A DNA stretch of 64,000 bases from the sequence record PX880100.1; one strand, given 5' to 3'. A program made the position numbers and the translations under genes. Source of the stretch: a phage. Each line of letters begins with the position of its first letter. Position 1 is the first letter of the stretch. Below, one piece after another: positions 37,035 through 62,873 of the stretch. The notes below the pieces were generated by a model, which did not search any database, was not told the origin of the DNA, and was given only the letters and a program-made list of their open reading frames with translations.

Positions 37035-37070
37035 CTAATACAGCACTGAGCAAGTTCTTTAAAATTTGAC

Positions 37071-37161: not shown

Positions 37162-37267
37162 TGTTGGATTAGTATCGTAGAGGTAGCGAAGCAGACTGTA
37201 AATCTGCCGACTCGGAAGGGTCTCGGGTGGTTCGACTCCATCATCCATCATCCATCATCCAACACCA
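37162..37267 (+). tRNA. tRNA-Tyr-like (anticodon GUA), class II, atypically long; boundaries uncertain
   Basis: Perfect anticodon arm GCAGA-CTGTAAA-TCTGC, D-stem TCG/CGA, T-arm GGTGG-TTCGACT-CCATC; 3' region carries ATCCATC-ATCCATC-ATCCAAC then ACCA; GTTGGAT pairs with the last copy. Confidence 0.5.
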
Positions 37268-37274
37268 AATTTAA

Positions 37275-37351
37275 GTCCTGTTAGACAAACTGGTAAAGTC
37301 ACTACCCTTTCAAGGTAGGATTTGCGGGTTCGATCCCCGCACAGGACGCCA
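37275..37351 (+). tRNA. tRNA-Glu (anticodon UUC)
   Basis: Acceptor GTCCTGT/ACAGGAC, anticodon arm CTACC-CTTTCAA-GGTAG, T-arm GCGGG-TTCGATC-CCCGC, encoded CCA. Confidence 0.8.
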
Positions 37352-37360
37352 ATTTCTGCA

Positions 37361-37436
37361 TTCCTAGAGTGTTACTGGACAGCATGTCGGTCTCCAAAAT
37401 CGTACGGTCTAGGTTCGAGTCCTAGTAGGTTTGCCA
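37361..37436 (+). tRNA. tRNA-Trp-like (anticodon CCA), acceptor pairing unresolved
   Basis: Anticodon arm TCGGT-CTCCAAA-ATCGT and T-arm CTAGG-TTCGAGT-CCTAG with encoded CCA; spacing to neighbouring tRNAs fits, but 5' acceptor strand could not be paired by eye. Confidence 0.4.
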
Positions 37437-37442
37437 AAATTT

Positions 37443-37517
37443 GCACCTTTAGCTGAGATGGATTAGCGCTTGCCTGAAGAGCTTGAGAGGTTCGTTCGAT
37501 ACGAACAGGGTGCACCA
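37443..37517 (+). tRNA. tRNA-Phe-like (anticodon GAA)
   Basis: Acceptor GCACCTT/AGGGTGC, D-arm GCTG..TAGC, T-arm GTTCG-TTCGATA-CGAAC, encoded CCA; anticodon loop CTGAAGA but stem has two U-U mismatches. Confidence 0.55.
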
Positions 37518-37519
37518 AA

Positions 37520-37807
37520 TTGAGGGGGCTGCTGATGCATCCTGAAAACTTCTTTATTTACTGCGCTGATAAGTCGCTGAAACGTAGAATTAACAAAGTC
37601 TATCATTATCGTGCTAGTCAACAGCCTTATGTATATGCTTTTGACGGTGATCACATTCCATTAGAACAATTATCTTGTGATTACATGATATTGAAGAACT
37701 TTGACGAGACAAAGATCTCAAGCGTTCATAATCGACAGAATCCCTTAACGTGGAAATATAAGAAGAAAAAGAAAGGCATCAAATTCTTAAAAAATGTAGT
37801 TGCTTAG
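37520..37807 (+). CDS. hypothetical protein (95 aa)
   Basis: Track ORF starting 3 nt after the tRNA; TTG start. Confidence 0.45.
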   Translation: MRGLLMHPENFFIYCADKSLKRRINKVYHYRASQQPYVYAFDGDHIPLEQLSCDYMILKNFDETKISSVHNRQNPLTWKYKKKKKGIKFLKNVVA

Positions 37808-37828
37808 TTTCCAAAAGTTCTGTATAAT
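37800..37828 (+). promoter_or_regulatory. PN25-type early promoter
   Basis: TTGCTT, 17-bp spacer, TATAAT, then AATTACATAAATTGAACTGGAG; approximate. Confidence 0.55.
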
Positions 37829-37857
37829 AATTACATAAATTGAACTGGAGAAGCAAC

Positions 37858-38082
37858 ATGACAGAACAAGAATTGAATGAACGTAAGCTGGTAATGCTCC
37901 GCTTACTAAACATTTTCTCTGGTATGGATGGGGGTATTGACTTTGTTCATCTACGTTCTTTTGTAGAAGAAGCAGAAGGTGAATCTATCACTAAAATCCT
38001 TAAACATATGGGTTTACTATTAGATGCTGCTGGTGTAGCAACGGAATATAACCTCGAAGATCTACCGGAGCGTATTAAATGA
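37858..38082 (+). CDS. hypothetical protein (75 aa)
   Basis: ATG at 37858 with GGAG RBS; track lists an extended frame from 37840. Confidence 0.5.
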   Translation: MTEQELNERKLVMLRLLNIFSGMDGGIDFVHLRSFVEEAEGESITKILKHMGLLLDAAGVATEYNLEDLPERIK

Positions 38083-38267
38083 AGAAGCCAAAAGCTAAAT
38101 TAGTTAAGTTCGACTGTTGTGACACAGAAATCTTATTCACTAAGTTTGGTGAATTTAAGATGTGTGAATGTGGAACATGTGGTTATGATCATGGTGATGG
38201 ATATTATTGCAGGACTCTTGGACCAGCAAATCTAATCCACTTTTCATGGCCGGAAGATAAAGAATAA
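38079..38267 (+). CDS. small zinc-ribbon-like protein (62 aa)
   Basis: Track ORF; cysteine clusters FDCCDTE and CECGTCGYDHGDGYYC; 4-nt overlap with upstream gene. Confidence 0.5.
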   Translation: MKKPKAKLVKFDCCDTEILFTKFGEFKMCECGTCGYDHGDGYYCRTLGPANLIHFSWPEDKE

Positions 38268-38269
38268 TT

Positions 38270-38344
38270 GCATCCTTGTCCGAGTGGCTTAGGTGACGGT
38301 CTGCAAAATCGTCTAGGTTGGTTCAATTCCAGCAGGGTGCTCCA
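38270..38344 (+). tRNA. tRNA-Cys (anticodon GCA)
   Basis: Acceptor GCATCCT/AGGGTGC, anticodon arm ACGGT-CTGCAAA-ATCGT, T-arm GTTGG-TTCAATT-CCAGC, encoded CCA. Confidence 0.7.
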
Positions 38345-38350
38345 AATTCA

Positions 38351-38433
38351 GGGTCGTTAGCCAAGCGGTTTGGCGGTGGACTGTTAATCCATGTCGAAAG
38401 ACAACGTAGGTTCGAATCCTACACGGCCCGCCA
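38351..38433 (+). tRNA. tRNA-Asn (anticodon GUU) with an enlarged (~13-nt) variable region
   Basis: Acceptor GGGTCGT/ACGGCCC, D-arm GCCA..TGGC, anticodon arm GTGGA-CTGTTAA-TCCAT, T-arm GTAGG-TTCGAAT-CCTAC, encoded CCA. Confidence 0.65.
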
Positions 38434-38535
38434 AATTCTGTGTAGAGTTAAGTAAACCGGTAGCCAACCAGCTATCATTGCTGACATCGAATTCAGCCAC
38501 AGATACCATTTTCATTAATAACTGAGGAAACAAGC

Positions 38536-38721
38536 ATGTCCAAGAATGTAATTGCGCAGCTAGAAGTTCATCGTGATAGCACTATCAACAATATTGAAGT
38601 TGAGAAGAAATACATCGAAGAACTTAAACATGATATACTAGTAAGTCTCAACCGTCTTAATGTACGAAAAGAGTTTCTTAAAGAACTTAATGCAGCTATT
38701 GAAAAACTCAAAGCTGAGTAA
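38536..38721 (+). CDS. hypothetical protein (61 aa)
   Basis: Track ORF with GAGGAAAC RBS. Confidence 0.5.
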   Translation: MSKNVIAQLEVHRDSTINNIEVEKKYIEELKHDILVSLNRLNVRKEFLKELNAAIEKLKAE

Positions 38722-38730
38722 ATGAATTAT

Positions 38731-38807
38731 GCGACCGGGGCTGGCTTGGTAATGGTACTCCCCTGTCACGGGAGGGAATGTGGGTTCAAATCCCATCGGT
38801 CGCGCCA
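38731..38807 (+). tRNA. tRNA-Asp (anticodon GUC)
   Basis: Acceptor GCGACCG/CGGTCGC, anticodon arm CTCCC-CTGTCAC-GGGAG, T-arm GTGGG-TTCAAAT-CCCAT, encoded CCA. Confidence 0.8.
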
Positions 38808-38824
38808 AATAAGGTAGGTTAGCT

Positions 38825-38983
38825 ATGGAACGTAGAGAGTTTACTCCAGAAGAGATAGAGCAGATAAAAGAATCTGCTACGAAAAATGCTAGAATATCTC
38901 TGTCACTAGAAGGTATCATTATTAGTGATGTAAACTTTGAAAAAATCAAAGCCATAGCTGATGAACTGGAAAAAGTAATTTAA
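38825..38983 (+). CDS. hypothetical small protein (52 aa, below track cutoff)
   Basis: ATG at 38825 with AAGGTAGG RBS between two tRNAs; acidic helical peptide. Confidence 0.45.
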   Translation: MERREFTPEEIEQIKESATKNARISLSLEGIIISDVNFEKIKAIADELEKVI

Positions 38984-38984
38984 T

Positions 38985-39060
38985 ACATCCATAGCTCAAT
39001 GGTTAGAGCTACCGCCTCTTAAGCGGAGGGTTCTAGGTTCAAGTCCTAGTGGGTGTACCA
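38985..39060 (+). tRNA. tRNA-Lys (anticodon CUU)
   Basis: Acceptor ACATCCA/TGGGTGT, D-arm GCTC..GAGC, anticodon arm CCGC-CTCTTAA-GCGG, T-arm CTAGG-TTCAAGT-CCTAG, encoded CCA. Confidence 0.65.
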
Positions 39061-39086
39061 AACTAAACTAGCACGAGAAATATACT

Positions 39087-39434
39087 ATGCGTAATGCTAA
39101 AGAAGAGTTGTTACTTGCCTTAAAAAATACTAATTCTGAAGTTAAGTGTATTAAAATAGAATTCGGGTATTATGGGGACAAAAAAGTTTGGGTATTACCT
39201 CTGGGGTATACAGAAGAAGATATTGGGGATTTTCTTAATAACCTAGACTTTGAGTATGATTCTGGTTATGGTGGACAACTACTTTATGGTAATGTATGGT
39301 TTGCCGATGGAACCTGGCTAGAACGTGGGGAATATGATGGAGCTGAGTGGTGGGAATACAAGGCTACTCCAGCAATTCCAGAGGAATGCCGAACAATTAA
39401 TGGTGAAGTAGATAATACTTTAAGGTTAAACTAA
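39087..39434 (+). CDS. hypothetical protein (115 aa)
   Basis: Track ORF. Confidence 0.5.
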   Translation: MRNAKEELLLALKNTNSEVKCIKIEFGYYGDKKVWVLPLGYTEEDIGDFLNNLDFEYDSGYGGQLLYGNVWFADGTWLERGEYDGAEWWEYKATPAIPEECRTINGEVDNTLRLN

Positions 39435-39438
39435 TAAA

Positions 39439-39538
39439 ATTTCAGTGCAGAACACGGAGCTAGCAATTCGGAAGTGCTGACTCATGATAAGCTGCCTATG
39501 TACTTGCAAAGCGGTCGTGTCCAAGACTCGGACTCTTG
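39439..39538 (+). ncRNA. structured ORF-free element closed by a ~10-bp long-range stem
   Basis: TTCAGTGCAG at the 5' end pairs with CTTGCACTGAA at the 3' end, enclosing internal hairpins (GTCC-AAGACTC-GGAC); no ORF. Confidence 0.35.
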
Positions 39539-39556
39539 CACTGAAAACAATCAAAC

Positions 39557-39684
39557 ATTCTAGCGTGGTTGATGGGGAAACCAGCTTGGCTAGGGCAGAA
39601 GCTCGTTCGATTCGAGTGAAAGAATGGTTCTCGTAAGTCCGCACAAGTGATAATAGGTTCGAGTCCTGTCTAGAATGACACTAT
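39557..39684 (+). ncRNA. tRNA-like element of atypical length (~128 nt)
   Basis: ATTCTAG...CTAGAAT acceptor-like pairing, D-arm-like GGTT-GATGGGGA-AACC, two T-arm-like motifs; too long for a canonical tRNA. Confidence 0.3.
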
Positions 39685-39826
39685 AAAGTTTACTTATTAT
39701 GTAGGTTCCGATAGATCGGCGGGTCTATTCTGGCATTTAAGAGAGGTCTCGCAAACTTCTTTGTCAGCCGTGGGGTTGGTAGCCTCCAGGTGGCCTACAC
39801 AATAAGTAAATTTATTAAAAATTCAT

Positions 39827-39855
39827 TTGCTATTTCTCTTAATTATCTGTATAAT
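39827..39855 (+). promoter_or_regulatory. PN25-type early promoter
   Basis: TTGCTA, 17-bp spacer, TATAAT, then ATATTTTATAAAGTGAAGAGAAGG; approximate. Confidence 0.55.
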
Positions 39856-39887
39856 ATATTTTATAAAGTGAAGAGAAGGAAAGCAAA

Positions 39888-40046
39888 ATGAAACACAAGA
39901 TAGCTCAAGTTTTTATGGCATTATGGTGTATGCCAATAGCTATAACAGCATTTAATCTAGATACTTTTACTATAGAAGAAAAATGTATCGGATTAGTTAG
40001 TGGCTTTAGTATGCTTGGCTTATCTTTGTTGTGGTTGAAGAAATAA
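39888..40046 (+). CDS. hypothetical small membrane peptide (52 aa, below track cutoff)
   Basis: ATG at 39888 with GAAGGAAAG RBS after the promoter; hydrophobic sequence; stops 4 nt before tRNA-Pro. Confidence 0.5.
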   Translation: MKHKIAQVFMALWCMPIAITAFNLDTFTIEEKCIGLVSGFSMLGLSLLWLKK

Positions 40047-40050
40047 TATT

Positions 40051-40128
40051 CTCCGTGTAGCTCAGTTTGGCCAGAGCGTTTCGTTTGGGGCGATAGGGTC
40101 GGGGGTTCAAATCCTCCCACGGAGACCA
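40051..40128 (+). tRNA. tRNA-Pro (anticodon UGG)
   Basis: Acceptor CTCCGTG/CACGGAG, D-arm GCTC..GAGC, anticodon loop TTTGGGG (stem with one U-U), T-arm GGGGG-TTCAAAT-CCTCC, encoded CCA. Confidence 0.7.
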
Positions 40129-40134
40129 AACAAT

Positions 40135-40212
40135 TGCGGGTTAGATCTCTGGTAGAGATCGCTAGTCTCATAAGCTAGAAAGAGGTAGGTTCGATTCCTG
40201 CACCCGCTTCCA
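40135..40212 (+). tRNA. tRNA with CAU anticodon (Met-type; T-T mismatch at pair 1-72)
   Basis: Acceptor TGCGGGT/ACCCGCT, D-arm GATC..GATC, anticodon arm CTAGT-CTCATAA-GCTAG, T-arm GTAGG-TTCGATT-CCTGC, encoded CCA. Confidence 0.6.
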
Positions 40213-40232
40213 TTTTAATAGAGGATTTCGAA

Positions 40233-40400
40233 ATGAAAGTATTTCGATTAGTAGTAAGTGACAAACGCTTAGGTAAGAATACATCAAAATCCTTACTTGC
40301 TCATTATGGTAGAAATTGGGATGAAGTAATGGCAGAGTTTAGTACTAATCACTCTTACTTGAAAGTTCACTCTATTAAAGAAGTATACAATGGTTACTAA
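40233..40400 (+). CDS. hypothetical small protein (55 aa, below track cutoff)
   Basis: ATG at 40233 with GAGGA RBS between tRNAs. Confidence 0.45.
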   Translation: MKVFRLVVSDKRLGKNTSKSLLAHYGRNWDEVMAEFSTNHSYLKVHSIKEVYNGY

Positions 40401-40401
40401 T

Positions 40402-40480
40402 AGATCGCTAGCTCAATAGGTTTAGTAGCATCCGACTTTTAATCGGAAGGTTCTGGGTTCAAGTCCCAGGCGATCTACCA
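40402..40480 (+). tRNA. tRNA-Lys (anticodon UUU)
   Basis: Acceptor AGATCGC/GCGATCT, anticodon arm TCCGA-CTTTTAA-TCGGA, T-arm CTGGG-TTCAAGT-CCCAG, encoded CCA. Confidence 0.8.
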
Positions 40481-40484
40481 ATTT

Positions 40485-40558
40485 GCTCGGTTAGTTTAAT
40501 GGGAGAACCCCGTCTTTACATGGCGGTTGAGATAGTTCGATTCTATCACCGGGTACCA
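40485..40558 (+). tRNA. tRNA-Val (anticodon UAC)
   Basis: Acceptor GCTCGGT/ACCGGGT, anticodon arm CCGTC-TTTACAT-GGCGG, T-arm GATAG-TTCGATT-CTATC, encoded CCA. Confidence 0.8.
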
Positions 40559-40577
40559 ATTAACTCAAAATAAGGAA

Positions 40578-40937
40578 TTGCAAATGCAATTATCAAGCAA
40601 GATTCAAGGTTATTTCGGTCATGTGACAATGGAGTTCGCTATCTCTAAAGGTTGGGACTTCGAACAAGATTTAGCTGAGTTCTACAAAGATATTGATCTG
40701 AACGTACCGTACATGGGACTTTCTACTGGTCAGGAGATCACAGAAGCCGATGTATTCAAGGCAAGTCAAGGTGAGGTAACACCTAGTTTTGCCGAGTTCT
40801 GGTTAGGCATTACGTTAAAAGAAGATGCACCAGATAGTGGTGTACTAATGTCTAGTATGCACTCTGGAAGTTCCGATTACCTTTTCATTAGCGATGTTAA
40901 GGAAATACAAGAAGTCTGCAAAAATGTACTTGCTTGA
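40578..40937 (+). CDS. hypothetical protein (119 aa)
   Basis: Track ORF (TTG start; in-frame ATG at 40584) with AAGGAATTG RBS. Confidence 0.5.
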   Translation: MQMQLSSKIQGYFGHVTMEFAISKGWDFEQDLAEFYKDIDLNVPYMGLSTGQEITEADVFKASQGEVTPSFAEFWLGITLKEDAPDSGVLMSSMHSGSSDYLFISDVKEIQEVCKNVLA

Positions 40938-40957
40938 TGCTTAATTTCTTGTTATAA
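40929..40957 (+). promoter_or_regulatory. PN25-type early promoter feeding an ORF-free leader and tRNAs
   Basis: TTGCTT, 17-bp spacer, TATAAT, then ATTTATATAAATTGATGAGGAG; approximate. Confidence 0.55.
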
Positions 40958-41195
40958 TATTTATATAAATTGATGAGGAGAAATCCTCATCATAGTTCAC
41001 TAAGGTATTAGCTCGACCTAGGACTGGCTGCCAAAAAGCACGATCCCTACGATTCGGGAGAAGTTCTAGATTGGTCCACTAGATTCAGCGGCAACTGAAT
41101 AGTGTATTGGGTTTGCGAGATGACGTAGTTCCTTCCGCTCTAAGCGAAGGTGCTGTAGTTACGCCGAGCTAATAGCCTTAGTAAACTAAAGAATT

Positions 41196-41274
41196 TGGGG
41201 AATGGGTCTGCATGGAGTGGACACCTCGCTTGCACCGAGGACATCAGAACGGTTCGATTCCGTTATTCTCCACC
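41196..41274 (+). tRNA. tRNA-Ala (anticodon UGC)
   Basis: Acceptor GGGGAAT/ATTCTCC, D-arm GTCT..GGAC, anticodon arm CCTCG-CTTGCAC-CGAGG, T-arm AACGG-TTCGATT-CCGTT, encoded CCA. Confidence 0.8.
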
Positions 41275-41279
41275 AAATA

Positions 41280-41356
41280 CGCGTGATTGATGGAATTGGC
41301 ATACATACCGTCCTTAGAAGTCGGGTTTTGAGGGTTCGAATCCCTTGTCACGCACC
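41280..41356 (+). tRNA. tRNA with UAG anticodon (Leu-type anticodon, short variable arm)
   Basis: Acceptor GCGTGAT/GTCACGC, anticodon arm CCGTC-CTTAGAA-GTCGG (one mismatch), T-arm GAGGG-TTCGAAT-CCCTT, encoded CCA. Confidence 0.5.
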
Positions 41357-41468
41357 AAATTTGATGGTCAGAGTAAATTAAACCTACTATCTCGGTTGAG
41401 CTGTTTTAATGGGTTCGAATCCCAGCGAGGCGTAACTGCCTGGTGTGATAGAGGCATCATCTTATTAT

Positions 41469-41559
41469 TGGAAGAGCAAATCGAATTGGCGACGAAAACC
41501 GCTTGGAAAGTGGCTGACTGGTAAAACGGCTTGAGAGTTCAAATCTCTCCTCTTCCGCC
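41469..41559 (+). tRNA. tRNA-Ser (anticodon GGA), class II
   Basis: Acceptor GGAAGAG/CTCTTCC, anticodon arm ACCGC-TTGGAAA-GTGGC, long variable arm, T-arm GAGAG-TTCAAAT-CTCTC, encoded CCA. Confidence 0.7.
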
Positions 41560-41571
41560 AAACAATTTATA

Positions 41572-41666
41572 TGGTAGGTCAATCCAATGGCTGGCGTGGG
41601 ACTCCGACTTGAAATCGGTTGATCGTAGTGATACGGTGTAAGGGTTCGATCCCCTTACCTACCTCC
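41572..41666 (+). tRNA. tRNA-Ser (anticodon UGA), class II
   Basis: Acceptor GGTAGGT/ACCTACC, anticodon arm TCCGA-CTTGAAA-TCGGT, long variable arm, T-arm AAGGG-TTCGATC-CCCTT, encoded CCA. Confidence 0.7.
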
Positions 41667-42032
41667 AAATCTTGAAGTATGCCGGAATCGGTAGACGGGG
41701 CTGCCTAAAAGGTTTATAGGGAACATCCACTCCCTGCAACATACCCCATAAAGCGGCTGAGATAAATGGTCTATCTCGTGAAGGTTCAAGTCCTTCTGCT
41801 TCTTGATACATCAATGGCTCAAAGTGTAACGGCGCTATTTGATGCGCTTAGTAAGACTTCCCCGACATGCGTTCGGGAGTAAGCTGCTAAGGCTAGAGTA
41901 GAAGAGTTTCTGAGAGCCGCCACAATTGAAGATTCGTACTCGTCTTGAGCTGCGTGCAATAGGAGATAACTTGATTAGTATTCTAGAACATGCTAATTGA
42001 GGAAGGTTTCGCTAACCCTGCGAGTTTTCAAT

Positions 42033-42109
42033 TGTGGCTATATCATAATTGGTTAATGATCCTGATTGTGAATCAGGCCTATGTGGATTCGAATTCCACT
42101 AGCCACCCC
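42033..42109 (+). tRNA. tRNA-His (anticodon GUG)
   Basis: Acceptor GTGGCTA/TAGCCAC, D-arm TCAT..ATGA, anticodon arm CCTGA-TTGTGAA-TCAGG, T-arm GTGGA-TTCGAAT-TCCAC, encoded CCA. Confidence 0.85.
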
Positions 42110-42135
42110 AAATTAACTTAAATAGGAAATAAAAT

Positions 42136-42330
42136 ATGGCTGATTTCTGCAAACAATGCTCCATTGATATGTGGGGCAGAGATACTGGTGATCTTTCTGG
42201 TTTGATTACAGAAGCTGAAGTTAAAGAAGGCTACGGTGCTGTTGTGATTTGCGAGGGATGCGGAGTTATTCGAGTAGATCATGAAGGCAAACGTTTGGAA
42301 GAATCTGAGCCAACAACAATTTTTCCGTAG
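42136..42330 (+). CDS. small zinc-ribbon-like protein (64 aa)
   Basis: Track ORF; CKQCS...CEGCG cysteine pairs; AGGAAATAAA RBS. Confidence 0.5.
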   Translation: MADFCKQCSIDMWGRDTGDLSGLITEAEVKEGYGAVVICEGCGVIRVDHEGKRLEESEPTTIFP

Positions 42331-42342
42331 AATAAAAATTAT

Positions 42343-42418
42343 TGGGATGTAGATCAATTGGCAGATCGTCGGCCTCTGACTCCGAAGGCTCCACGTTCGA
42401 TCCGTGGCATCCCAGCCA
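42343..42418 (+). tRNA. tRNA-Gln (anticodon CUG)
   Basis: Acceptor TGGGATG/CATCCCA, D-arm GATC..GATC, anticodon loop CTCTGAC, T-arm CCACG-TTCGATC-CGTGG, encoded CCA. Confidence 0.7.
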
Positions 42419-42424
42419 AATAAT

Positions 42425-42500
42425 TGGAGAGTAGTGTAACGGTTAGCACAACGGCCTTTGACTCCGTTAATGGTAGGTTCGATTCCTCCTTCTCCAGCCA
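42425..42500 (+). tRNA. tRNA-Gln (anticodon UUG)
   Basis: Acceptor TGGAGAG/TTCTCCA, D-arm GTGT..GCAC, anticodon loop CTTTGAC, T-arm GTAGG-TTCGATT-CCTCC, encoded CCA. Confidence 0.7.
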
Positions 42501-42508
42501 AATAATAA

Positions 42509-42584
42509 GCGGTTAAGCACACGGGTTGTGTCGCAGGCCTTCCAAGCCTCGCTGAGTAGGGTTCGATTCCCTCTAGCCGCTCCA
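42509..42584 (+). tRNA. tRNA-Gly (anticodon UCC)
   Basis: Acceptor GCGGTTA/TAGCCGC, anticodon arm AGGC-CTTCCAA-GCCT, T-loop TTCGATT, encoded CCA. Confidence 0.65.
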
Positions 42585-42600
42585 ACTTTAAGGGGACATT

Positions 42601-42822
42601 ATGCACGTTTTTGAGTTTCGTAATAAAAGTACCGATAAACGAGTTATTGTTATCGGGGAAACATACCGAGCATACGAACAAACTGACGGCTCTGTTATCC
42701 TGAATGACGAAAAAGGAGGTTTTAGCTTTTATCCCAAAGAAACTTACGAAGAATTTCGTACAAAGTTTCTTCTACCAGACTGGCTAGAAGTAGCGCAGCA
42801 ACGAGAACCCGAAGATGGCTGA
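42601..42822 (+). CDS. hypothetical protein (73 aa)
   Basis: Track ORF with AAGGGGAC RBS. Confidence 0.5.
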   Translation: MHVFEFRNKSTDKRVIVIGETYRAYEQTDGSVILNDEKGGFSFYPKETYEEFRTKFLLPDWLEVAQQREPEDG

Positions 42823-42979
42823 TAACCTAAAAGTCAAGATCGATAAACAAAAGAAACGTGTCGAAGTAGAGATTGGTGAAGAACGTGTAGCCTTCACCTT
42901 TGAATTTCTACAACAAATGGCAATGACAGTTATGACTGATAAGTCTCCTGTTATTGAAAAAGAAATCCCGTTGAAATAA
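42815..42979 (+). CDS. hypothetical small protein (54 aa, below track cutoff)
   Basis: ATG at 42815 overlapping the upstream stop; ends 10 nt before tRNA-Thr. Confidence 0.4.
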   Translation: MADNLKVKIDKQKKRVEVEIGEERVAFTFEFLQQMAMTVMTDKSPVIEKEIPLK

Positions 42980-42988
42980 CGGGCTATC

Positions 42989-43063
42989 GCTCCTAAAGCA
43001 TTGTTGGCGATGCAGTTGCCTTGTAAGCATCTGAACCGGGTTCGATTCCTGGTGGGAGCACCA
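42989..43063 (+). tRNA. tRNA-Thr (anticodon UGU)
   Basis: Acceptor GCTCCTA/TGGGAGC, D-arm GCAT..ATGC, anticodon loop CTTGTAA, T-arm CCGGG-TTCGATT-CCTGG, encoded CCA. Confidence 0.75.
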
Positions 43064-43078
43064 AATTTAAAAATTCAT

Positions 43079-43107
43079 TTGCTTTCTCTCTTATTTCTTG
43101 TTATAAT
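43079..43107 (+). promoter_or_regulatory. PN25-type early promoter
   Basis: TTGCTT, 17-bp spacer, TATAAT, then ATTTATATAAATTAATGAGAGGG; approximate. Confidence 0.55.
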
Positions 43108-43137
43108 ATTTATATAAATTAATGAGAGGGAAGCCAA

Positions 43138-43431
43138 ATGAAACGTTATCTTTCTGTTGTGTTCCAAACTGGTGGTCAGCGCTATACTTACGAATTTCCT
43201 GGCTCTTGGAAAGTCAAAGAAGGTGATCAAGTAGTTGTATTAACACCGCGTGACGGGTATAAGGTAGTAACGGTTAAGCAAGTATTTTCAAAAGACTATG
43301 AACCGTCTAAGTCTATTAACTATAAGATGATTCATGGTGTAGTTCGTCAAGTACCACGAGCGGAAGTCGAAATCAAAGTAGATAAAGATGATAAACTTAA
43401 ATATACCTCTTGCATAGACGAGTTGCTATAA
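43138..43431 (+). CDS. hypothetical protein (97 aa)
   Basis: Track ORF downstream of promoter. Confidence 0.5.
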   Translation: MKRYLSVVFQTGGQRYTYEFPGSWKVKEGDQVVVLTPRDGYKVVTVKQVFSKDYEPSKSINYKMIHGVVRQVPRAEVEIKVDKDDKLKYTSCIDELL

Positions 43432-43637
43432 TGAGGATTACTTTTACAGAAAAGATTATGAGTAATGGTGTTATGATCATTACCGCATGGGACAGTAATC
43501 AGTGGTGTAGTGTTTCAGGTATTAAGCCTGAAGAACAAACACTAGAAAATATCTCAAAGATTAAGCGAAGAATGGCAGAACGTGCACGACTTCCAGGTGC
43601 ACCTAGAAATGGCAAACGTTCTGCTGTGAAATGTTAA
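43431..43637 (+). CDS. hypothetical protein (68 aa)
   Basis: ATG at 43431 overlapping the upstream TAA (TAATG); track lists a longer frame from 43410. Confidence 0.45.
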   Translation: MRITFTEKIMSNGVMIITAWDSNQWCSVSGIKPEEQTLENISKIKRRMAERARLPGAPRNGKRSAVKC

Positions 43638-43638
43638 T

Positions 43639-43715
43639 GCTTCGGTAGCTTAGCGATCTAAAGCACTCGGCTGATAACCGAGAGATCGGGGGTTTAAATC
43701 CCTCCCGGAGTACCA
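43639..43715 (+). tRNA. tRNA-Ile (anticodon GAU)
   Basis: Acceptor GCTTCGG/CCGGAGT, D-arm GCTT..AAGC, anticodon arm CTCGG-CTGATAA-CCGAG, T-arm GGGGG-TTTAAAT-CCCTC, encoded CCA. Confidence 0.8.
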
Positions 43716-43811
43716 AATTTAGGAATTAAGACTATGCGTCCAGGAAAGTTTAGAAAAGCTAATTGGTCTAAAGAGTATAAAGAATACTTACTTAGTCTAG
43801 TAAAACATAAC

Positions 43812-43887
43812 AGTTAGTTGGCAGAGTGGTTATGCACCTCCTTCATACGGAGCGACTACAGTGGTTCAAATCCACTACTAACTACCA
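43812..43887 (+). tRNA. tRNA-Met (anticodon CAU)
   Basis: Acceptor AGTTAGT/ACTAACT, anticodon loop TTCATAC, T-arm AGTGG-TTCAAAT-CCACT, encoded CCA. Confidence 0.7.
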
Positions 43888-54366: not shown

Positions 54367-54946
54367 ATTCTGGTCAGACTTGCACTTAGACCACCCTGGA
54401 GCGTTACGTTTCCGTCCGTGGTTTAAGAACATGAAAGAGCACGATGAGTATATTCTAGATACTTTGTCCAAGCATATTGGTAAGCGAACAAAACTTATTT
54501 TGCTAGGGGATATTGCAGTAGGTCGTGAAGGTCTGGCCAAATTAAAGTCGGTTATCCACAATGTTCCTAACCAACTCATTATGGGTAATCATGATGCGGA
54601 ACGTCAAGGACTGAGCATTAGGGACTTAGCAGAAGTTTATGATGATATTCAGGCTCTAGGTAAACAGACTGGAGGTGGCAAAAAGTTTTGGCTATCTCAC
54701 TGCCCTTTACATCCTAATGAACTTCGTGGCAAACTAAATATTCACGGACATGTACATACTATTTCTTTACGTGACCCACGTTATATTAATGTCTCATTTG
54801 AAATGAGTAAAACTCCAGTTCCACTAGAGGATATTGTGTCTGGTAAGTTTACTAGCTATGACAGAGTAGTTAATTGTACTACCGGTGAAGTATTACAAAT
54901 AGGGGAAGATGTAGCTGCTGTATTACGTGGTGATATAAATGTCTGA
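54356..54946 (+). CDS. metallophosphoesterase (second calcineurin-like phosphatase)
   Basis: 196 aa; LGDIAVGREG and MGNHD motifs, GHVH near C-terminus. Confidence 0.65.
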   Translation: MKVKFWSDLHLDHPGALRFRPWFKNMKEHDEYILDTLSKHIGKRTKLILLGDIAVGREGLAKLKSVIHNVPNQLIMGNHDAERQGLSIRDLAEVYDDIQALGKQTGGGKKFWLSHCPLHPNELRGKLNIHGHVHTISLRDPRYINVSFEMSKTPVPLEDIVSGKFTSYDRVVNCTTGEVLQIGEDVAAVLRGDINV

Positions 54947-59350: not shown

Positions 59351-59964
59351 TGTTTACACAACAACCTATTCAAGTAGTACCAGACCATGAACTGAACACA
59401 TGGGATTATAGCTTTAAAGATTTAACTGCTACTGTACAATTCAAATCTATGAAGCTAACATTTGCACACACTGACCTTAGAGCCTGTAAAGATCTTGAAA
59501 GTAAGCTCGAAGATGCTCGTAAGATTTTTGGCACGGCTCGCATCCCGGCTGATAACCTGATTAATGCACTGATCGATGCAGGGTACAAACTTGTGAAGAC
59601 TGAGGTAAATCGTCCCAGTACCCCAGTGACTATTAGAGATCCGTGGCAATCAGGGCCAATCGCAATGCTAAATAACTCCGATAAAAGATTAATGTCGGAT
59701 ATGCACAATGTTCCTTGTGGGGGTGTGATAAGTAGTACGCAGTCATATAAGTTTGCGGAAGATTACGGCCCATCTGTGCAGTTAAAACATACTCAAGAAG
59801 CTTTTGAATCTGATATACGAAGCGCAGCACCTGCGGATGCTGGAGTTTCTAGGAGTTCTGTTTGTACTACTCATTTTAATAATCCTAGTAAACATGGAAG
59901 TTTAGAGGATGCTATTATGGAGGCGTTAGGAGCTGCTCTTAATGAAGATAAGAGAGGTAATTAA
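59350..59964 (+). CDS. hypothetical protein (204 aa)
   Basis: Track ORF, start overlapping upstream stop. Confidence 0.5.
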   Translation: MFTQQPIQVVPDHELNTWDYSFKDLTATVQFKSMKLTFAHTDLRACKDLESKLEDARKIFGTARIPADNLINALIDAGYKLVKTEVNRPSTPVTIRDPWQSGPIAMLNNSDKRLMSDMHNVPCGGVISSTQSYKFAEDYGPSVQLKHTQEAFESDIRSAAPADAGVSRSSVCTTHFNNPSKHGSLEDAIMEALGAALNEDKRGN

Positions 59965-60854
59965 TGGGATTTTATAGTAATAGAAAACCAAAAGGTGTAA
60001 CTGGTAAATTCGCAGTTGAAGAAAGACCTTTTCCACCAGTAGATGTAGAGAAACTACGTGAACTTCTAGAAATGCTAGAAGGTTGCCATGAACGTTGTTA
60101 TTCTGAACTCTCTTTAAATGAGAAACGTGTTGTTGAGATGTTCTGTATTCGTTCAGCTAGAACAGCTAAAGGTACTTCTCCAAAAGATGAAGTAAAAGAA
60201 TACAGAGTTCTAGTGATGCATGCTTGGGCACAACGTTTTGCAGTTCATTCACTTCAGGAATGGTTTAATCTTCCAGCATATAAAGATTTCCATGTTTATG
60301 AAGATGAAGTTATGAATTATAATGAGTTGTATGGTTTGTCTTTCAAAAAGACAGGCTCACCGATGCATGATGCACTCAATTCATTCCCTGATCATTACCT
60401 TCCAGTTCGTGAATACAGAGATCGTGAAGGAAATAAACCCTGCTTCACTATTTGGAACAAGTCTAAGACGATATCTGATCTAGATAATTATTGGTTCCGC
60501 ACAAAAGAAGGATTCCTAGGAACAGAGCCTTTACCTAAGGATCTCAAACCTATCCTTCCGCCTGCGAAACCTAAGCATGAAGTAACGATTGCTATTAATA
60601 GAATAATTCTAGGAGCAGATGATCTTACTAAACAAATCGCCGCAGTTATCGCAGTTCTATTTGATGGTACAAATTCTTCTGCACGTTATGAGAAGCTAAC
60701 AGGTAACAAATTGCAGATACCTAACGAGTTATATGAGAGTTCGTGCAAGATCTATGATAATTTTAGTAAAGTAGATTACCCCGTGAGGTCCATCAAAGAA
60801 CTCATGGAGTATGCGGAGATGGGGATGAAAGGAAATCTCATGTTCGATGAATAA
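59964..60854 (+). CDS. hypothetical protein (296 aa)
   Basis: Track ORF; last rightward gene before the repeat region. Confidence 0.5.
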   Translation: MGFYSNRKPKGVTGKFAVEERPFPPVDVEKLRELLEMLEGCHERCYSELSLNEKRVVEMFCIRSARTAKGTSPKDEVKEYRVLVMHAWAQRFAVHSLQEWFNLPAYKDFHVYEDEVMNYNELYGLSFKKTGSPMHDALNSFPDHYLPVREYRDREGNKPCFTIWNKSKTISDLDNYWFRTKEGFLGTEPLPKDLKPILPPAKPKHEVTIAINRIILGADDLTKQIAAVIAVLFDGTNSSARYEKLTGNKLQIPNELYESSCKIYDNFSKVDYPVRSIKELMEYAEMGMKGNLMFDE

Positions 60855-60861
60855 ACTCTAC

Positions 60862-60890
60862 TTGACGTTATGATTTCTGCATGTTATAAT
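60862..60890 (+). promoter_or_regulatory. promoter directed into the ORF-free repeat region
   Basis: TTGACG, 17-bp spacer, TATAAT; no ORF downstream; approximate. Confidence 0.45.
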
Positions 60891-61193
60891 AACTCTATGA
60901 AATAACATAGAATAAAGAGATCCACCCGGATACGGATAGTGGATGGGAAACTTCTATTTCCCCCGTAGCTTGTCGGAGGGCTAGGGAAATCTTAAGAAGT
61001 TTTGTACCATCTCACGCAATTCGTATCCCAGGGGTGGAGCATCTCTTCCAATCTTTGGGGGATCTTATATTTAAATTAAAGGTAAAACTTTTGACCACAT
61101 AATTTACATTCAAGATGATACACTTGTTGCCACCGCTCTTCCTAGGATGGCACGACACTTTCTAGTAGACTCCTAAGTTTCTAGGAAAATCCT

Positions 61194-61930
61194 GTCGTAT
61201 TTGCACATATTATAGGGCAGTTTCTCTCCTGCTATAAATATCCTAGGCCGGTTTTCCTACACAGGGCGGTTATTGGGAGGGCGGTTATTTCTAGAAGACA
61301 TTTTTCCAAAACACATTTCCAGAATTCATTGTCGGATTCGCACATTGTGTTTCTAGAAATTTATGGTCGGATTTGCACAATCGCCTAAGTTTTTAGGAAC
61401 ATATAATCTCCTGAAAATGGCAGCATTATTTCGGGCCGAAGGCCCATGATTGCCTGAGTTTTTAGAGCCACAAGAATTTTCGCTTGTCAAGCTATTTTGC
61501 CCCATTTAGCTAATAAAATTTTACCTTTTCTGCACTTATCTCAAATTAACCCAAATCTTCTCAACTCTTCCCCAAAATCCCCGCAAATCAGGTGCTCCGC
61601 ACCAAACATGCACCTCTCTCACAGTTCTCTCAAATTTTTCTCGCTCTCTCAACTTCTCCCCGAACTCATACAATCACACACCCTCTAATCGAAGTCACAA
61701 AAATCTTGTCGGATTCGCACAAATAAACCCATGTCGGATCTGCACATACTCTAGCTAATTCCACAGGATTGATGCGCAGCATCGGATTGCTGGAGTTTTT
61801 GGGAAAATTCATTGTCGGATTTGCACACTATAAAAATTTTTCGGGTCGGATTTGCACACTACCAAAAATTGTCGGATTTGCACATACACGCCCACGCGTA
61901 ATCCATGGGGGCAAATGTCGGATTTGCACA
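61194..61930. repeat. nine dispersed copies of a 14-bp motif GTCGGAT(T/C)(T/C)GCACA
   Basis: Copies at about 61194, 61331, 61366, 61708, 61733, 61814, 61845, 61871, 61917, all in the same orientation with irregular spacing (25-342 bp). Confidence 0.7.
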
Positions 61931-61934
61931 AAAG

Positions 61935-61952
61935 CGCAGGGCAATTGCCCTG
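61935..61952. repeat. perfect 18-bp palindrome GCAGGGCAATTGCCCTGC
   Basis: Read directly; could form a hairpin or cruciform. Confidence 0.7.
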
Positions 61953-61972
61953 CTCGCCTGAATGCGAATAAA

Positions 61973-62150
61973 AATGAGAATGATTCTCATTTAAAAAGCG
62001 GAATGCGAATGATAATGATTCGTATTTAAGAATGGAAATGAGAATTATTCAGGAAGTGAAACGATTCTCATTTAAAAAGTGGAATGATTATTAGTTACAT
62101 AGTAAAACGCGAATGATAATGATTCGTATTTAAGAATGGAAGAGAGAAAC
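61973..62150. repeat. interleaved direct repeats and palindromes
   Basis: Unit GATTCTCATTTAAAAAG(C/T)GGAATG occurs twice and unit GCGAATGATAATGATTCGTATTTAAGAATGGAA twice; palindromes AATGAGAATGATTCTCATT and CGAATGATAATGATTCG inside. Confidence 0.65.
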
Positions 62151-62163
62151 ACTATTATTTAAG

Positions 62164-62172
62164 TTATCCACA
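62164..62172 (+). promoter_or_regulatory. DnaA box (TTATCCACA)
   Basis: Exact 9-mer consensus; second copy 73 bp downstream. Confidence 0.55.
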
Positions 62173-62236
62173 GACTTATTAACAGCACGATTTGACTTGA
62201 CAGAATCCTAGCCATTTTGAGGCGTTATTAACAGAC

Positions 62237-62245
62237 TTATCCACA
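62237..62245 (+). promoter_or_regulatory. DnaA box (TTATCCACA)
   Basis: Exact 9-mer consensus; flanked by permuted CAGACTTAT / TTAACAG motifs shared with the first box. Confidence 0.55.
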
Positions 62246-62263
62246 GCTTATCCTACTGTATAA

Positions 62264-62283
62264 ATATACAGTATTCCTACGCA
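62264..62283. promoter_or_regulatory. LexA (SOS) box-like palindrome TACTGTATAAATATACAGTA
   Basis: CTGT-N8-ACAG with AT-rich spacer and palindromic flanks, matching the E. coli LexA-box consensus pattern. Confidence 0.45.
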
Positions 62284-62467
62284 GTGAATAATTCTAATAT
62301 AGCGTTAAAACGTCCTAGATCGCATTCTAACGCGTTTAATTTTGTTGGGGATACTAAAACAAGGGCAAAATTGGAGGAGGCTTAGAAATTAGTTAGCTCG
62401 CTAACGATCACACAAGGCGACACGTAACACCCTAACCATTAGCAGGCTAACCATCGCGGGCGCGGTC

Positions 62468-62488
62468 AAATGAGAATCATTCTCATTT
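62468..62488. repeat. palindrome AAATGAGAATCATTCTCATTT
   Basis: Read directly; related to the AATGAGAATGATTCTCATT palindrome ~500 bp upstream. Confidence 0.65.
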
Positions 62489-62639
62489 GAGAATTGGGGG
62501 CACTTCCCGATAGTTGCGCCCCGTGATTATTACAGTAGTGGGCAACCGTTACGTTTTGCCCACTCCCGCCACTCATCTTGATACCTAGACTTGCGACGGC
62601 GTACTAAAAACCGTTTATACCAGTGATTAAACCATTGTT

Positions 62640-62873
62640 TCATAAATCCTCCTCCGGTAGTCGATGCGTGATTTTTTCCTCCTCCCCGTAGGAATCCGCC
62701 AAATGCTGATAATAACCATCGTGATCATAAATCACTTTATCATACTCGCCACGCTCGACCGCTTGCCGATTCTCCGGCGTATCGGGCACATAAAAAACAT
62801 CAACCATTGTACTAGTTTTGGTCACAATAATTTTATTGCTCATAATAACTCCTAGTAAATATATTTTTGCCAA
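62640..62873 (-). CDS. hypothetical protein (77 aa)
   Basis: Track ORF; higher GC than the rest of the window; GGAGG-type RBS upstream on the reverse strand. Confidence 0.5.
   Translation of the reverse strand: MAKIYLLGVIMSNKIIVTKTSTMVDVFYVPDTPENRQAVERGEYDKVIYDHDGYYQHLADSYGEEEKITHRLPEEDL

What the first reader, a model, noticed from the sequence alone, without database searches (positions are those of the whole stretch)
60855..62640. Repeat-dense ORF-free region: 14-bp motif x9, two DnaA boxes, large palindromes
After the last rightward gene, ~1.8 kb has no credible ORF but holds nine same-orientation copies of GTCGGAT(T/C)(T/C)GCACA, interleaved ~25- and ~33-bp direct repeats, perfect palindromes of 18-21 bp, a GGGCGGTTATT direct repeat and two exact TTATCCACA DnaA boxes 73 bp apart. 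In T5 the boundary of the left terminal repeat contains the injection-stop region, reported as rich in repeats, palindromes and DnaA boxes; this region has the same character and position relative to the early genes. The 14-bp repeat array looks like a multimeric binding site for a phage or host protein.
Basis: partly seen in the sequence, partly recalled or inferred. Interest (0 to 1): 0.7.

Follow-up and report, generated by a model that had tools for sequence, protein, structure and literature searches.

The report
T5 injection-stop repeat region homolog
This gene-free, repeat-packed 1.8 kb is the already-described "injection stop signal" region at the edge of the long terminal repeat of T5-like phages, so the finding is real but not new, and how the region works is still unproven.

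Summary
The window is a T5-like phage (Tequintavirus) in reverse orientation relative to T5. Window 60855-62640 is the non-coding gap between the homologues of T5.018 (early) and T5.017 (pre-early). It aligns at 87-93% to the stretch that the T5 RefSeq record annotates as "injection stop signal (iss)", called "Repeat Region 3" by Davison. That description already lists nine DRD direct repeats, paired DnaA boxes, DRE repeats and palindromes.

By homology, the terminal-repeat end falls at 61464|61465, between two clusters of the 14-mer: three copies outside the repeat and six inside. The T5 7.9% nick maps to 61933|61934, 3 bp after the last copy. The 14-mer array occurs in five genera examined. 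A Vibrio relative has a diverged motif in the same layout, which points to a lineage-specific binding protein.

Three features are not in the literature I could read:
- a near-consensus LexA box (19/20) beside the DnaA boxes, present in all 13 phages examined;
- a strong promoter followed by a long hairpin whose structure is conserved while its sequence is not;
- a C-rich tract just inside the repeat end.

Verdict: already known. The mechanism is still open. Interest is low to moderate.

The parts
59964..60854 (+). Last rightward gene, homologue of T5.018 (first early gene next to the repeat). It is the left border of the non-coding region.
   Evidence: ORF list. AKFV33 orf018 is annotated as similar to T5.018. 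No Pfam family.
60862..60890 (+). Sigma-70-type promoter with extended -10 (TTGACG-17-TATAAT, TG before the -10). It points into the non-coding region.
   Evidence: 11 of 12 consensus matches. The same promoter sits at the same place in T5, HASG4, MM-2, UTK0009, STK8t, GRNsp8 and My1 under the strict pattern. Promoter-like -10 elements are also seen in Elw, phiR2-01, Shiner and PG07.
60916..61044 (+). Long imperfect hairpin of about 53 pairs, immediately downstream of the promoter. It is a candidate ~150-180-nt structured RNA ending at GGGGGATCTTATATTT (61057-61072).
   Evidence: MFE -66.7 kcal/mol, z = -5.5. A hairpin of similar size but unrelated sequence is present in 10 lineages (z -4.4 to -8.1). 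The sense strand folds better in 9 of 10 lineages. The stem is almost invariant within this sequence type. No Rfam match.
61194..61379 (+). 14-mer (DRD) cluster A: copies at 61194-61207 (one mismatch), 61331-61344 and 61366-61379. It lies outside the terminal repeat. The AGGGCGGTTATT x2 repeat (61263-61289) lies between the copies.
   Evidence: These copies are positional homologues of the T5 copies at 10477, 10340 and 10305.
61433..61445 (.). GGGCC-GAA-GGCCC stem-loop 19 bp before the repeat end. It is conserved in T5, Elw, MM-2 and phiR2-01.
   Evidence: Sequence. Boundary contexts. The homologous position in AKFV33 is annotated as a stem_loop.
61464..61465 (.). Predicted end of the long terminal repeat, which is also the physical right end of the packaged genome. 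The repeat extends rightwards in the window from 61465 (...CCTGAGTTTTTA|GAGCCACAAG...).
   Evidence: Mapped from T5 LTR end 10219 through alignment A1. The homologous junction is the same in T5, HASG4, Elw, MM-2 and phiR2-01. The phiR2-01 repeats were defined by doubled read coverage. For this phage the position is an inference.
61497..61700 (+). C-rich, G-poor tract on the + strand, between the two 14-mer clusters and just inside the repeat end.
   Evidence: GC skew -0.65 to -0.73. A comparable tract lies between the clusters in all 11 lineages checked, weaker in PG07.
61708..61930 (+). 14-mer (DRD) cluster B: six copies at 61708, 61733, 61814, 61845, 61871 and 61917, inside the terminal repeat.
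   Evidence: Start-to-start spacings of 25, 81, 31, 26 and 46 bp are identical in T5, HASG4, Elw, STK8t and GRNsp8.
61933..61953 (+). Homologue of the T5 major single-strand interruption (7.9% nick) at 61933|61934 (AAA|GCGC), followed by the perfect 18-bp palindrome GCAGGGCAATTGCCCTGC (61936-61953).
   Evidence: T5 feature 9748/9749 on the T5 minus strand, mapped. Window and T5 are identical across this stretch. Palindrome.
61969..62148 (.). DRE-type repeats: two units of about 76 bp (61969-62044 and 62073-62148). They carry a family of AAATGAGAATGATTCTCATTT-like palindromic 21-26-mers at 61972, 62007, 62053, 62076 and 62111.
   Evidence: families D2, D3. The same palindrome family is found in My1, Shiner and Vibrio phage PG07.
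62140..62270 (.). IRD'-spacer-IRC' module. It holds two DnaA-box pairs (62164-62185 and 62225-62246), each a consensus box plus a TTATTAACA variant 3 bp away.
   Evidence: An inverted copy of this 131-bp module occurs in Repeat Region 2 of relative HASG4 (5662-5792, 78% identity). Description in Davison 2020.
62254..62273 (.). TACTGTATAAATATACAGTA, a 19/20 match to the E. coli LexA (SOS box) consensus, abutting the second DnaA-box pair.
   Evidence: Unique in the window; 0.01 expected at up to 3 mismatches. Present at the same position in all 13 lineages at 17-19/20. Consensus and real operators in PMC3009722 Table 4.
62466..62490 (.). Perfect 25-nt palindrome TCAAATGAGAATCATTCTCATTTGA, the sixth member of the palindrome family. 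It lies in a segment of about 117 bp that T5 lacks.
   Evidence: Gap in the T5 row of alignment A1, columns ~1834-1949.
62640..62873 (-). Last pre-early gene of the repeat (T5.017 homologue), the right border of the non-coding region.
   Evidence: ORF list. T5.017 end 9157 maps to 62640. Annotations.

Best explanation
The region is the non-coding junction between the long terminal repeat and the unique genome of a T5-like phage. [quoted passage not shown]

Shown here: homology, gene context, and element-by-element correspondence with T5.

Inferred by homology: the terminal repeat, and hence the right end of the packaged DNA, ends at 61464|61465. The 7.9% nick is at 61933|61934.

Likely working (inference): this is a composite cis-acting region, not one element.
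1. The repeat-internal part (62140-62273 plus the palindromic repeats at 61969-62148) is a dense set of high-affinity sites for host DNA-binding proteins that are already present. These are four DnaA boxes, one near-consensus LexA box, and possibly Fur-like palindromes. This part most plausibly determines where first-step DNA transfer halts. The halt needs no new protein synthesis, so it must rely on pre-existing factors or on the DNA itself.
2. The nine same-orientation 14-mers, split 3 + 6 around the repeat end, are binding sites for a protein specific to the phage lineage. My split for their role is:
- about 0.4: restart or arrest of transfer, via the pre-early DNA-binding protein A2 with A1;
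- about 0.3: recognition of the right genome end by terminase;
- about 0.1: replication iterons;
- the rest: other.
3. The left 200 bp is a separate unit, a strong promoter driving a long hairpin RNA of unknown role.
For: Identity:
- 456 phage records match, essentially all T5-like.
- The region aligns to the T5 iss/LTR end.
- It is flanked by T5.017 and T5.018 homologues.
- The window carries a T5-type cluster of 24 tRNA genes.
- The nine copies match T5's nine DRD in position and spacing.
- DnaA pairs lie 3 bp apart, as Davison describes.

Boundary: the junction is identical in five phages whose records carry both repeat copies or an annotated repeat. One of these was defined independently by read coverage.

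Host-site cluster: exact DnaA boxes; LexA box 19/20, present in all 13 lineages including a Vibrio phage.

A lineage-specific binder for the 14-mer:
- The motif is kept at 12-14 of 14 positions in Tequintavirus, Epseptimavirus, Myunavirus and Sugarlandvirus, although the flanks are no longer alignable.
- Vibrio phage PG07 has TAGAATCCGCACTCACA x5 in the same two-cluster layout. Its DnaA and LexA sites stay at or near consensus.

No new synthesis needed for the stop, and A1/A2 needed for restart: Davison 2020.
Against: - No experiment in any T5-like phage shows which element stops transfer. The iss assignment is positional.
- The repeat boundary of this particular phage was not measured.
- Three of the nine 14-mers lie outside the repeat. 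They are therefore absent from the right-end copy and from the DNA that has entered the cell at the stop, which fits poorly with a role only in the stop.
- The literature describes A2 only as a protein that binds double-stranded DNA; no sequence specificity is reported there.
- Binding of LexA, DnaA or Fur is predicted from sequence only.
- The Fur resemblance is weak: 2-3 mismatches, and no window-wide enrichment.
Confidence: 0.9

Rival explanations
1. Packaging signal. The two 14-mer clusters flank the exact site where terminase makes the right genome end. They would be the recognition array for the terminase small subunit, with the uniform orientation giving packaging its direction. The injection stop would then be a property of the neighbouring DnaA/palindrome part only.
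For: - The repeat end, which is the physical right terminus, lies at the same homologous position between the clusters in T5, HASG4, Elw, MM-2 and phiR2-01. In My1 it also lies between the clusters.
- Cluster A is 99 bp from the end on one side and cluster B 243 bp on the other.
- The motif co-varies with phage lineage.
- From general knowledge: the T5 left end is injected first, so the right end should be packaged first. Small terminase subunits typically bind arrays of short repeats (lambda cosB, SPP1 pac).
Against: - There are no 14-mer copies near the left cut site (T5 1-6600 and 109000-111700).
- The left and right junctions share no obvious motif.
- No T5 packaging-site data were found.
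- The packaging direction is an inference.
Confidence: 0.3
2. Replication origin. The direct repeats act as iterons, together with DnaA boxes, AT-rich repeats and a nearby strong promoter for transcriptional activation, as in lambda ori or plasmid oriV.
For: Same-orientation repeats, four DnaA boxes, AT-rich repeats at 29-32% GC at 61950-62150, and a strong promoter.
Against: - According to Davison 2020, T5 origins were mapped near the middle of the genome, and the replication genes are not on the first-step DNA.
- No initiator gene is adjacent, and the flanking genes have no Pfam family.
- The iteron spacing is irregular (25-81 bp).
Confidence: 0.08
3. Transcription boundary. The region exists mainly to insulate the pre-early operon in the repeat from early transcription. 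It would do this with terminators on both strands, a C-rich Rho-loading tract, and operator sites that shut off pre-early promoters.
For: - T5 annotates a terminator after T5.017.
- Terminator-like hairpins occur on both strands.
- The conserved C-rich, G-poor tract lies downstream of a strong promoter on the same strand.
- A second copy of the DnaA/LexA-like module sits in Repeat Region 2, where T5 annotates divergent promoters on either side.
Against: - Insulation does not explain nine conserved 14-mers, or why 1.8 kb is needed.
- No promoter overlapping the LexA or DnaA sites reached 9 of 12 in a convincing position.
Confidence: 0.15

Closest known systems
Bacteriophage T5 injection stop signal (iss) / 'Repeat Region 3' at the right end of the left terminal repeat (Heusterspreute et al. 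1987; T5 RefSeq NC_005859 feature 9140-10149; Davison 2020, bioRxiv 10.1101/866236)
   Same: Homologous sequence (87-93% identity), the same flanking genes, nine DRD 14-mers with the same spacing, DRE repeats, IRD'-spacer-IRC' with paired DnaA boxes, the nick site, and the repeat end inside the region.
   Different: Only small differences. There is an extra ~117 bp at about 62400-62516 carrying a 25-nt palindrome. The hairpin cassette at 60896-61055 is a different sequence type from T5's. Both DnaA pairs contain an exact consensus box, whereas T5 has one exact box in this module.
DnaA-box clusters of E. coli (oriC, datA, DARS)
   Same: Several consensus or near-consensus 9-mers in fixed arrangement within about 100 bp.
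   Different: No evidence of an unwinding element or of initiation here. The boxes come as pairs 3 bp apart and are duplicated as an inverted module elsewhere in the repeat. The proposed role is tethering or arrest, not replication.
LexA operators (SOS boxes) such as umuD, sbmC, istR2/tisB
   Same: CTGT-N8-ACAG palindrome matching 19/20 of the consensus, as close as the strongest chromosomal operators.
   Different: It is not visibly placed over a promoter. It sits on DNA of a virulent phage with no known SOS-regulated function.
Repeat arrays at phage genome ends and packaging sites (lambda cosB R sites; short repeat arrays flanking the T7 terminal repeat)
   Same: Short same-orientation repeats on both sides of a precise terminase cut that defines a terminal repeat end. 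The comparison systems are cited from memory.
   Different: No binding or cutting data exist for T5-like phages. The left end has no such array.
Iteron-type origins (lambda ori, plasmid oriV)
   Same: Direct repeats plus DnaA boxes plus AT-rich DNA plus a nearby promoter.
   Different: No adjacent initiator gene, irregular repeat spacing, and T5 origins mapped elsewhere.

Membership tests
T5-type iss / Repeat Region 3 | Non-coding gap between the last pre-early gene (T5.017) and the first early gene (T5.018) | tested here: met
   Gap 60855-62639, flanked by the T5.018 and T5.017 homologues.
T5-type iss / Repeat Region 3 | Sequence homology to the T5 region annotated as iss | tested here: met
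   87% over 1354 bp to T5; 91-93% to HASG4 and AKFV33.
T5-type iss / Repeat Region 3 | Series of nine DRD direct repeats in one orientation | tested here: met
   8 exact copies plus 1 one-mismatch copy, positionally matching T5's nine.
T5-type iss / Repeat Region 3 | IRD'-spacer-IRC' module with DnaA / DnaA* boxes in pairs separated by 3 bp | tested here: met
   62164-62185 and 62225-62246; description.
T5-type iss / Repeat Region 3 | Inverted partner module (IRC-spacer-IRD) in Repeat Region 2 of the same terminal repeat | not testable with these tools
   The partner would lie beyond the window end (64000). It is present in relative HASG4 at 5662-5792.
T5-type iss / Repeat Region 3 | Terminal-repeat end lies inside the region | tested here: inconclusive
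   Predicted at 61464|61465 by homology to five phages whose records carry both repeat copies or an annotated repeat. No reads or second repeat copy are available for this phage.
T5-type iss / Repeat Region 3 | DNA transfer pauses here until A1 and A2 are made | not testable with these tools
   Needs shear or time-resolved entry experiments.
DnaA-dependent replication origin | Cluster of consensus DnaA boxes | tested here: met
   Two exact boxes plus two one- or two-mismatch boxes.
DnaA-dependent replication origin | Initiation of replication at the site, or an adjacent initiator gene | tested here: not met
   No adjacent initiator gene could be identified. The literature places T5 origins mid-genome. 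Initiation itself was not testable.
LexA-regulated operator | CTGT-N8-ACAG palindrome close to consensus | tested here: met
   19/20; present in 13 lineages.
LexA-regulated operator | Overlaps a promoter that it represses | tested here: inconclusive
   Only weak promoter-like matches nearby (9 of 12).
Terminase recognition (pac/cos-type) site | Repeat array next to a precise terminase cut | tested here: inconclusive
   The cut position is known only by homology, and the arrays flank it. Binding was not testable.

The most novel reading that the evidence does not exclude
The long-known 'bewildering' iss region may resolve into separable modules, some of them undescribed in the literature I could read:
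(a) a landing pad for pre-existing host proteins. This pairs the known DnaA boxes with a family-wide near-consensus LexA operator, and perhaps Fur-like palindromes, and would set the stop;
(b) a 14-mer array for a phage-lineage-specific protein that brackets the physical genome end;
(c) a strongly promoted long-hairpin RNA, conserved in structure and free in sequence, present across Demerecviridae.

If (a) and (c) are real, host LexA and an unknown phage RNA become players in T5 biology.
Probability: 0.3. Interest if true: 0.55.

Novelty: already known. Interest (0 to 1): 0.22.

Why it matters
Two-step DNA transfer in T5 has been known since the 1960s, and the cis-acting stop signal has never been defined genetically. 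This window adds one more copy of a region already catalogued in T5 and about 25 relatives, so the finding itself changes nothing.

The comparative details gathered here could sharpen experiments:
- The repeat end always lies between the two 14-mer clusters.
- The 14-mer changes in a Vibrio relative, while the DnaA and LexA sites do not.
- A LexA-consensus site is present family-wide.
- A promoter-plus-hairpin unit is conserved in structure but not in sequence.

Together they indicate which elements to mutate and which proteins to test first.

Tried and rejected
- **Coding potential.** All ORFs of 40 aa or more in the gap were compared with T5 and AKFV33. Several are frameshifted or contain stops, and others are translations of the repeats. 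The 86-aa ORF has no Pfam hit. Rejected.
- **Known RNA families.** Rfam found nothing credible in the window region or in nine related loci.
- **The 14-mer as a weak DnaA box.** Its 3' 9-mer ATTTGCACA is one mismatch from the relaxed consensus TTWTNCACA and has the same orientation as the true boxes. However, the motif changes in Vibrio phage PG07 while the true DnaA boxes stay at consensus. Judged unlikely.
- **Fur boxes.** The palindrome family is 2-3 mismatches from TGATAATnATTATCA. There is no window-wide enrichment (9 found, 9.4 expected). The hits cluster only because they are copies of one repeat. The match is stronger in PG07. Kept only as a weak lead.
- **LexA-cleavage timer.** The idea was that host DNA degradation induces SOS, which removes LexA and restarts transfer. 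I consider it unlikely to be essential, because a T5-like phage in the hit lists was propagated on E. coli DH5a. That strain is recA1 (my knowledge) and cannot cleave LexA.
- **Shared motif at the left and right genome ends.** None seen.
- **Covariation within the hairpin type.** The stem is essentially invariant in 8 sequences, so there are no compensatory changes to count. Support comes only from the between-type comparison.
- **Literature.** Searches for T5 packaging-site data, T5 small RNAs or T5 LexA sites found nothing relevant. The 2015 Davison review and the 1987 paper could not be read.
Full report
**What the window is.** The 1.8-kb query matches 456 phage records, essentially all T5-like (Demerecviridae). 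The best full-length matches are at 89-93% (AZ23, AKFV33, phiP4). The window also carries a cluster of 24 tRNA genes at 33.8-43.9 kb, as T5 does. Matches to records numbered from the left terminal repeat, such as AKFV33 and T5, fall on the minus strand. The window therefore runs from the early region leftwards into the terminal repeat.

**Check of the observation.**
- The pattern GTCGGATYYGCACA has eight exact + strand copies, plus a ninth with one mismatch at 61194. With one mismatch allowed there are 10 matches in 64 kb against 0.03 expected.
- TTATCCACA occurs exactly at 62164 and 62237. The window holds three exact copies against 0.64 expected.
- Each of these two boxes is half of a 22-bp unit in which a second, variant box (TTATTAACA) follows after 3 bp.
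- Perfect palindromes of 18, 21 and 25 nt and a 9+2+9 palindrome are confirmed.
- The AGGGCGGTTATT pair and the 26- and 76-nt repeat families are confirmed.
- Between the stop of the 296-aa gene (60854) and the end of the leftward 77-aa gene (62640) there are only short ORFs, mostly starting with TTG or GTG. Several are interrupted in T5 or AKFV33, or are translations of the repeats. The largest has no Pfam match.

**What it is.** The T5 RefSeq record annotates four features here:
- the left terminal repeat, 1-10219;
- an "injection stop signal (iss)", 9140-10149;
- a terminator after T5.017;
- a "major DNA single-chain interruption" at 9748/9749.

The window aligns to this stretch at about 87% and to AKFV33 at 93%. 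The flanking genes are the T5.018 and T5.017 homologues.

Davison (bioRxiv 10.1101/866236) describes the same 1.2-kb "Repeat Region 3" in T5 and 24 relatives. [quoted passage not shown] He also notes that the region overruns the repeat end by 270 bp. T5's nine DRD copies and the window's nine are positional homologues with identical spacing. The finding is therefore a rediscovery of a described region.

**Mapping of landmarks.** Through alignment A1, the T5 repeat end maps to window 61464|61465 and the nick to 61933|61934.

The junction sequence ...GCCTGAGTTTTT(A/G)|GAGCCACA... is the repeat end in T5, HASG4, Elw, MM-2 and phiR2-01. The phiR2-01 repeats were defined independently from doubled read coverage.

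In every phage with an annotated or duplicated repeat end, including the distant My1, the end lies between two clusters of the 14-mer. In the window, three copies (61194, 61331, 61366) lie outside the repeat and six (61708-61930) inside.

The nick site (AAA|GCGC) lies 3 bp after the last copy and 2 bp before the 18-bp palindrome. Window and T5 are identical there.

For this phage these positions are inferences from homology.

**Comparative evidence on the 14-mer.** The motif (G/A)TCGGATTTGCAC(A/T) is found in 7-10 same-orientation copies in most phages examined (five in MM-2). Except in MM-2, where all five are close together, they fall in two clusters. This holds in Tequintavirus, Epseptimavirus, Myunavirus (My1) and Sugarlandvirus (Shiner), even where the surrounding DNA no longer aligns.

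In Vibrio phage PG07 (Pogseptimavirus) the same two-cluster layout is built from a different motif, TAGAATCCGCACTCACA, in five copies. The DnaA boxes and the neighbouring palindromes in PG07 remain at or near consensus. A motif that changes with phage lineage, while host-protein sites stay fixed, argues for a phage-encoded or lineage-specific binder.

No copies occur elsewhere in the T5 repeat or near the left genome end. One extra copy lies inside the T5.019 homologue (window 59694; T5 12153). AKFV33, UTK0009 and GRNsp8 also have a copy upstream of the array.

**Host-protein sites.**
- The 9+2+9 palindrome at 62254-62273, TACTGTATAAATATACAGTA, matches the E. coli LexA-box consensus TACTGTATATATATACAGTA at 19 of 20 positions. 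It is unique in the window, with 0.01 expected at up to three mismatches.
- Real operators listed in PMC3009722 (umuD, sbmC, istR2) are no closer to consensus.
- A 17-19/20 match sits at the same place, directly after the second DnaA pair, in all 13 lineages examined, including PG07.
- This DnaA-plus-palindrome stretch is the only part of the region that BLAST still aligns to the Vibrio phage.
- Davison's text does not mention LexA or SOS. No paper in the library links T5 with a LexA box. I could not read the 1987 paper.
- The AAATGAGAATCATTCTCATTT palindrome family is also family-wide. It resembles the Fur 7-1-7 box at 2-3 mismatches, but the statistics are weak.

**How it most likely works.** Established in the literature: first-step transfer stops without new protein synthesis, and restart needs the pre-early proteins A1 and A2. 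[quoted passage not shown]

The stop must therefore depend on the DNA itself or on proteins already present. The tight, conserved cluster of consensus sites for abundant host proteins lies just inside the estimated stop point. This fits Davison's proposal that host proteins capture this DNA, and it extends the proposal from DnaA to LexA.

The 14-mer array is lineage-specific, uniformly oriented, and begins right at the nick and stop point. It also brackets the physical genome end. It is better explained as a site for a phage protein, either A2/A1 for restart or terminase for making the right end. I cannot separate these two readings. All of this is inference and none has been tested.

**Rivals.** An iteron-type origin fits the anatomy. 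It conflicts with the mid-genome origins cited by Davison and with the lack of a recognisable neighbouring initiator gene. A pure transcription-boundary role is partly supported by terminators and a C-rich tract, but it does not explain the arrays.

**An additional unit at the left edge.** Directly after the T5.018 homologue lies a near-consensus promoter, TTGACG-17-TGTTATAAT. About 130 nt downstream of it form one long imperfect hairpin (MFE -66.7 kcal/mol, z = -5.5).
- A promoter or promoter-like -10 element plus a hairpin of similar size occur at the same position in ten lineages, from T5 to the Vibrio phage. The hairpin sequences are unrelated between lineages.
- The sense strand folds more stably than its complement in nine of ten lineages.
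- Within the window's sequence type (39 records, all at least 90% identical, nothing intermediate) the stem is almost invariant, while the 3' flank varies.
- Rfam has no match.
- Davison's paper mentions neither a promoter nor a hairpin here.

This looks like an undescribed structured RNA, or a strand-specific DNA hairpin. Its function is unknown.

**Verdict.** The feature is already known, so its interest as a finding is low. The mechanistic question remains open, and the side observations above may be worth a specialist's attention.

Noticed in passing
window 60862-61075 (+): Near-consensus sigma-70 promoter with extended -10, followed by a hairpin of about 130 nt (z = -5.5). A promoter or promoter-like -10 plus a hairpin recur at this position in ten Demerecviridae lineages, with unrelated hairpin sequences. 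Within one type the stem is nearly invariant. There is no Rfam family, and Davison 2020 does not mention it.
   Followed up: partly
window 62254-62273: The palindrome TACTGTATAAATATACAGTA matches the E. coli LexA SOS-box consensus at 19/20. It is present next to the DnaA-box pair in all 13 phages examined, including a Vibrio phage. A weaker second copy lies in Repeat Region 2 of relatives (T5 6211, HASG4 5776).
   Followed up: partly
window 61972-61992, 62007-62032, 62111-62136, 62466-62490; L015 2010-2443: The family-wide palindromes (TGAGAATnATTCTCA core) resemble the Fur 7-1-7 box TGATAATnATTATCA at 2-3 mismatches, and at 1 mismatch in Vibrio phage PG07. Statistically this is weak.
   Followed up: partly
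window 61497-61700 (+): A strongly C-rich, G-poor tract (GC skew about -0.7) lies just inside the predicted repeat end, between the two 14-mer clusters. It is conserved in all 11 lineages checked. It could be a Rho-loading site for transcripts coming from the upstream promoter.
   Followed up: partly
window 59694-59707 (+); T5 NC_005859 12153: A tenth 14-mer copy (GTCGGATATGCACA) lies inside the T5.019-homologue gene in the same orientation. T5 has an exact copy within T5.019. AKFV33, UTK0009 and GRNsp8 also have a copy upstream of the array.
   Followed up: no
L015 (Vibrio phage PG07) 1472-1921: The equivalent non-coding region uses a different repeat (TAGAATCCGCACTCACA, five copies in clusters of two and three) in place of the enterobacterial 14-mer. 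The overall layout is the same.
   Followed up: partly
window ~62400-62516: A segment of about 117 bp that is absent from T5 but present in AKFV33. It carries the 25-nt palindrome TCAAATGAGAATCATTCTCATTTGA.
   Followed up: no
window 60891-61080 versus phage database: The hairpin cassette comes in discrete sequence types. This type is found in 39 records, all at least 90% identical, with nothing between 65% and 90%. That suggests cassette exchange rather than gradual drift.
   Followed up: partly
window 60960-60985 (hairpin apex) and apexes in T5, phiR2-01, PG07: Four of nine hairpin types carry a CGGRRG (CGGAGG-like) motif near the apical loop. In the window the loop reads TTGTCGGAGG, which shares its first 8 nt with the 14-mer and its usual flank (TTGTCGGA). 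This may be coincidence.
   Followed up: no
window 54552-54560 (+): A third exact DnaA box (TTATCCACA) lies far from the region, inside the early gene block.
   Followed up: no
window 33839-43887 (+): A cluster of 24 tRNA genes, typical of T5-like phages.
   Followed up: no
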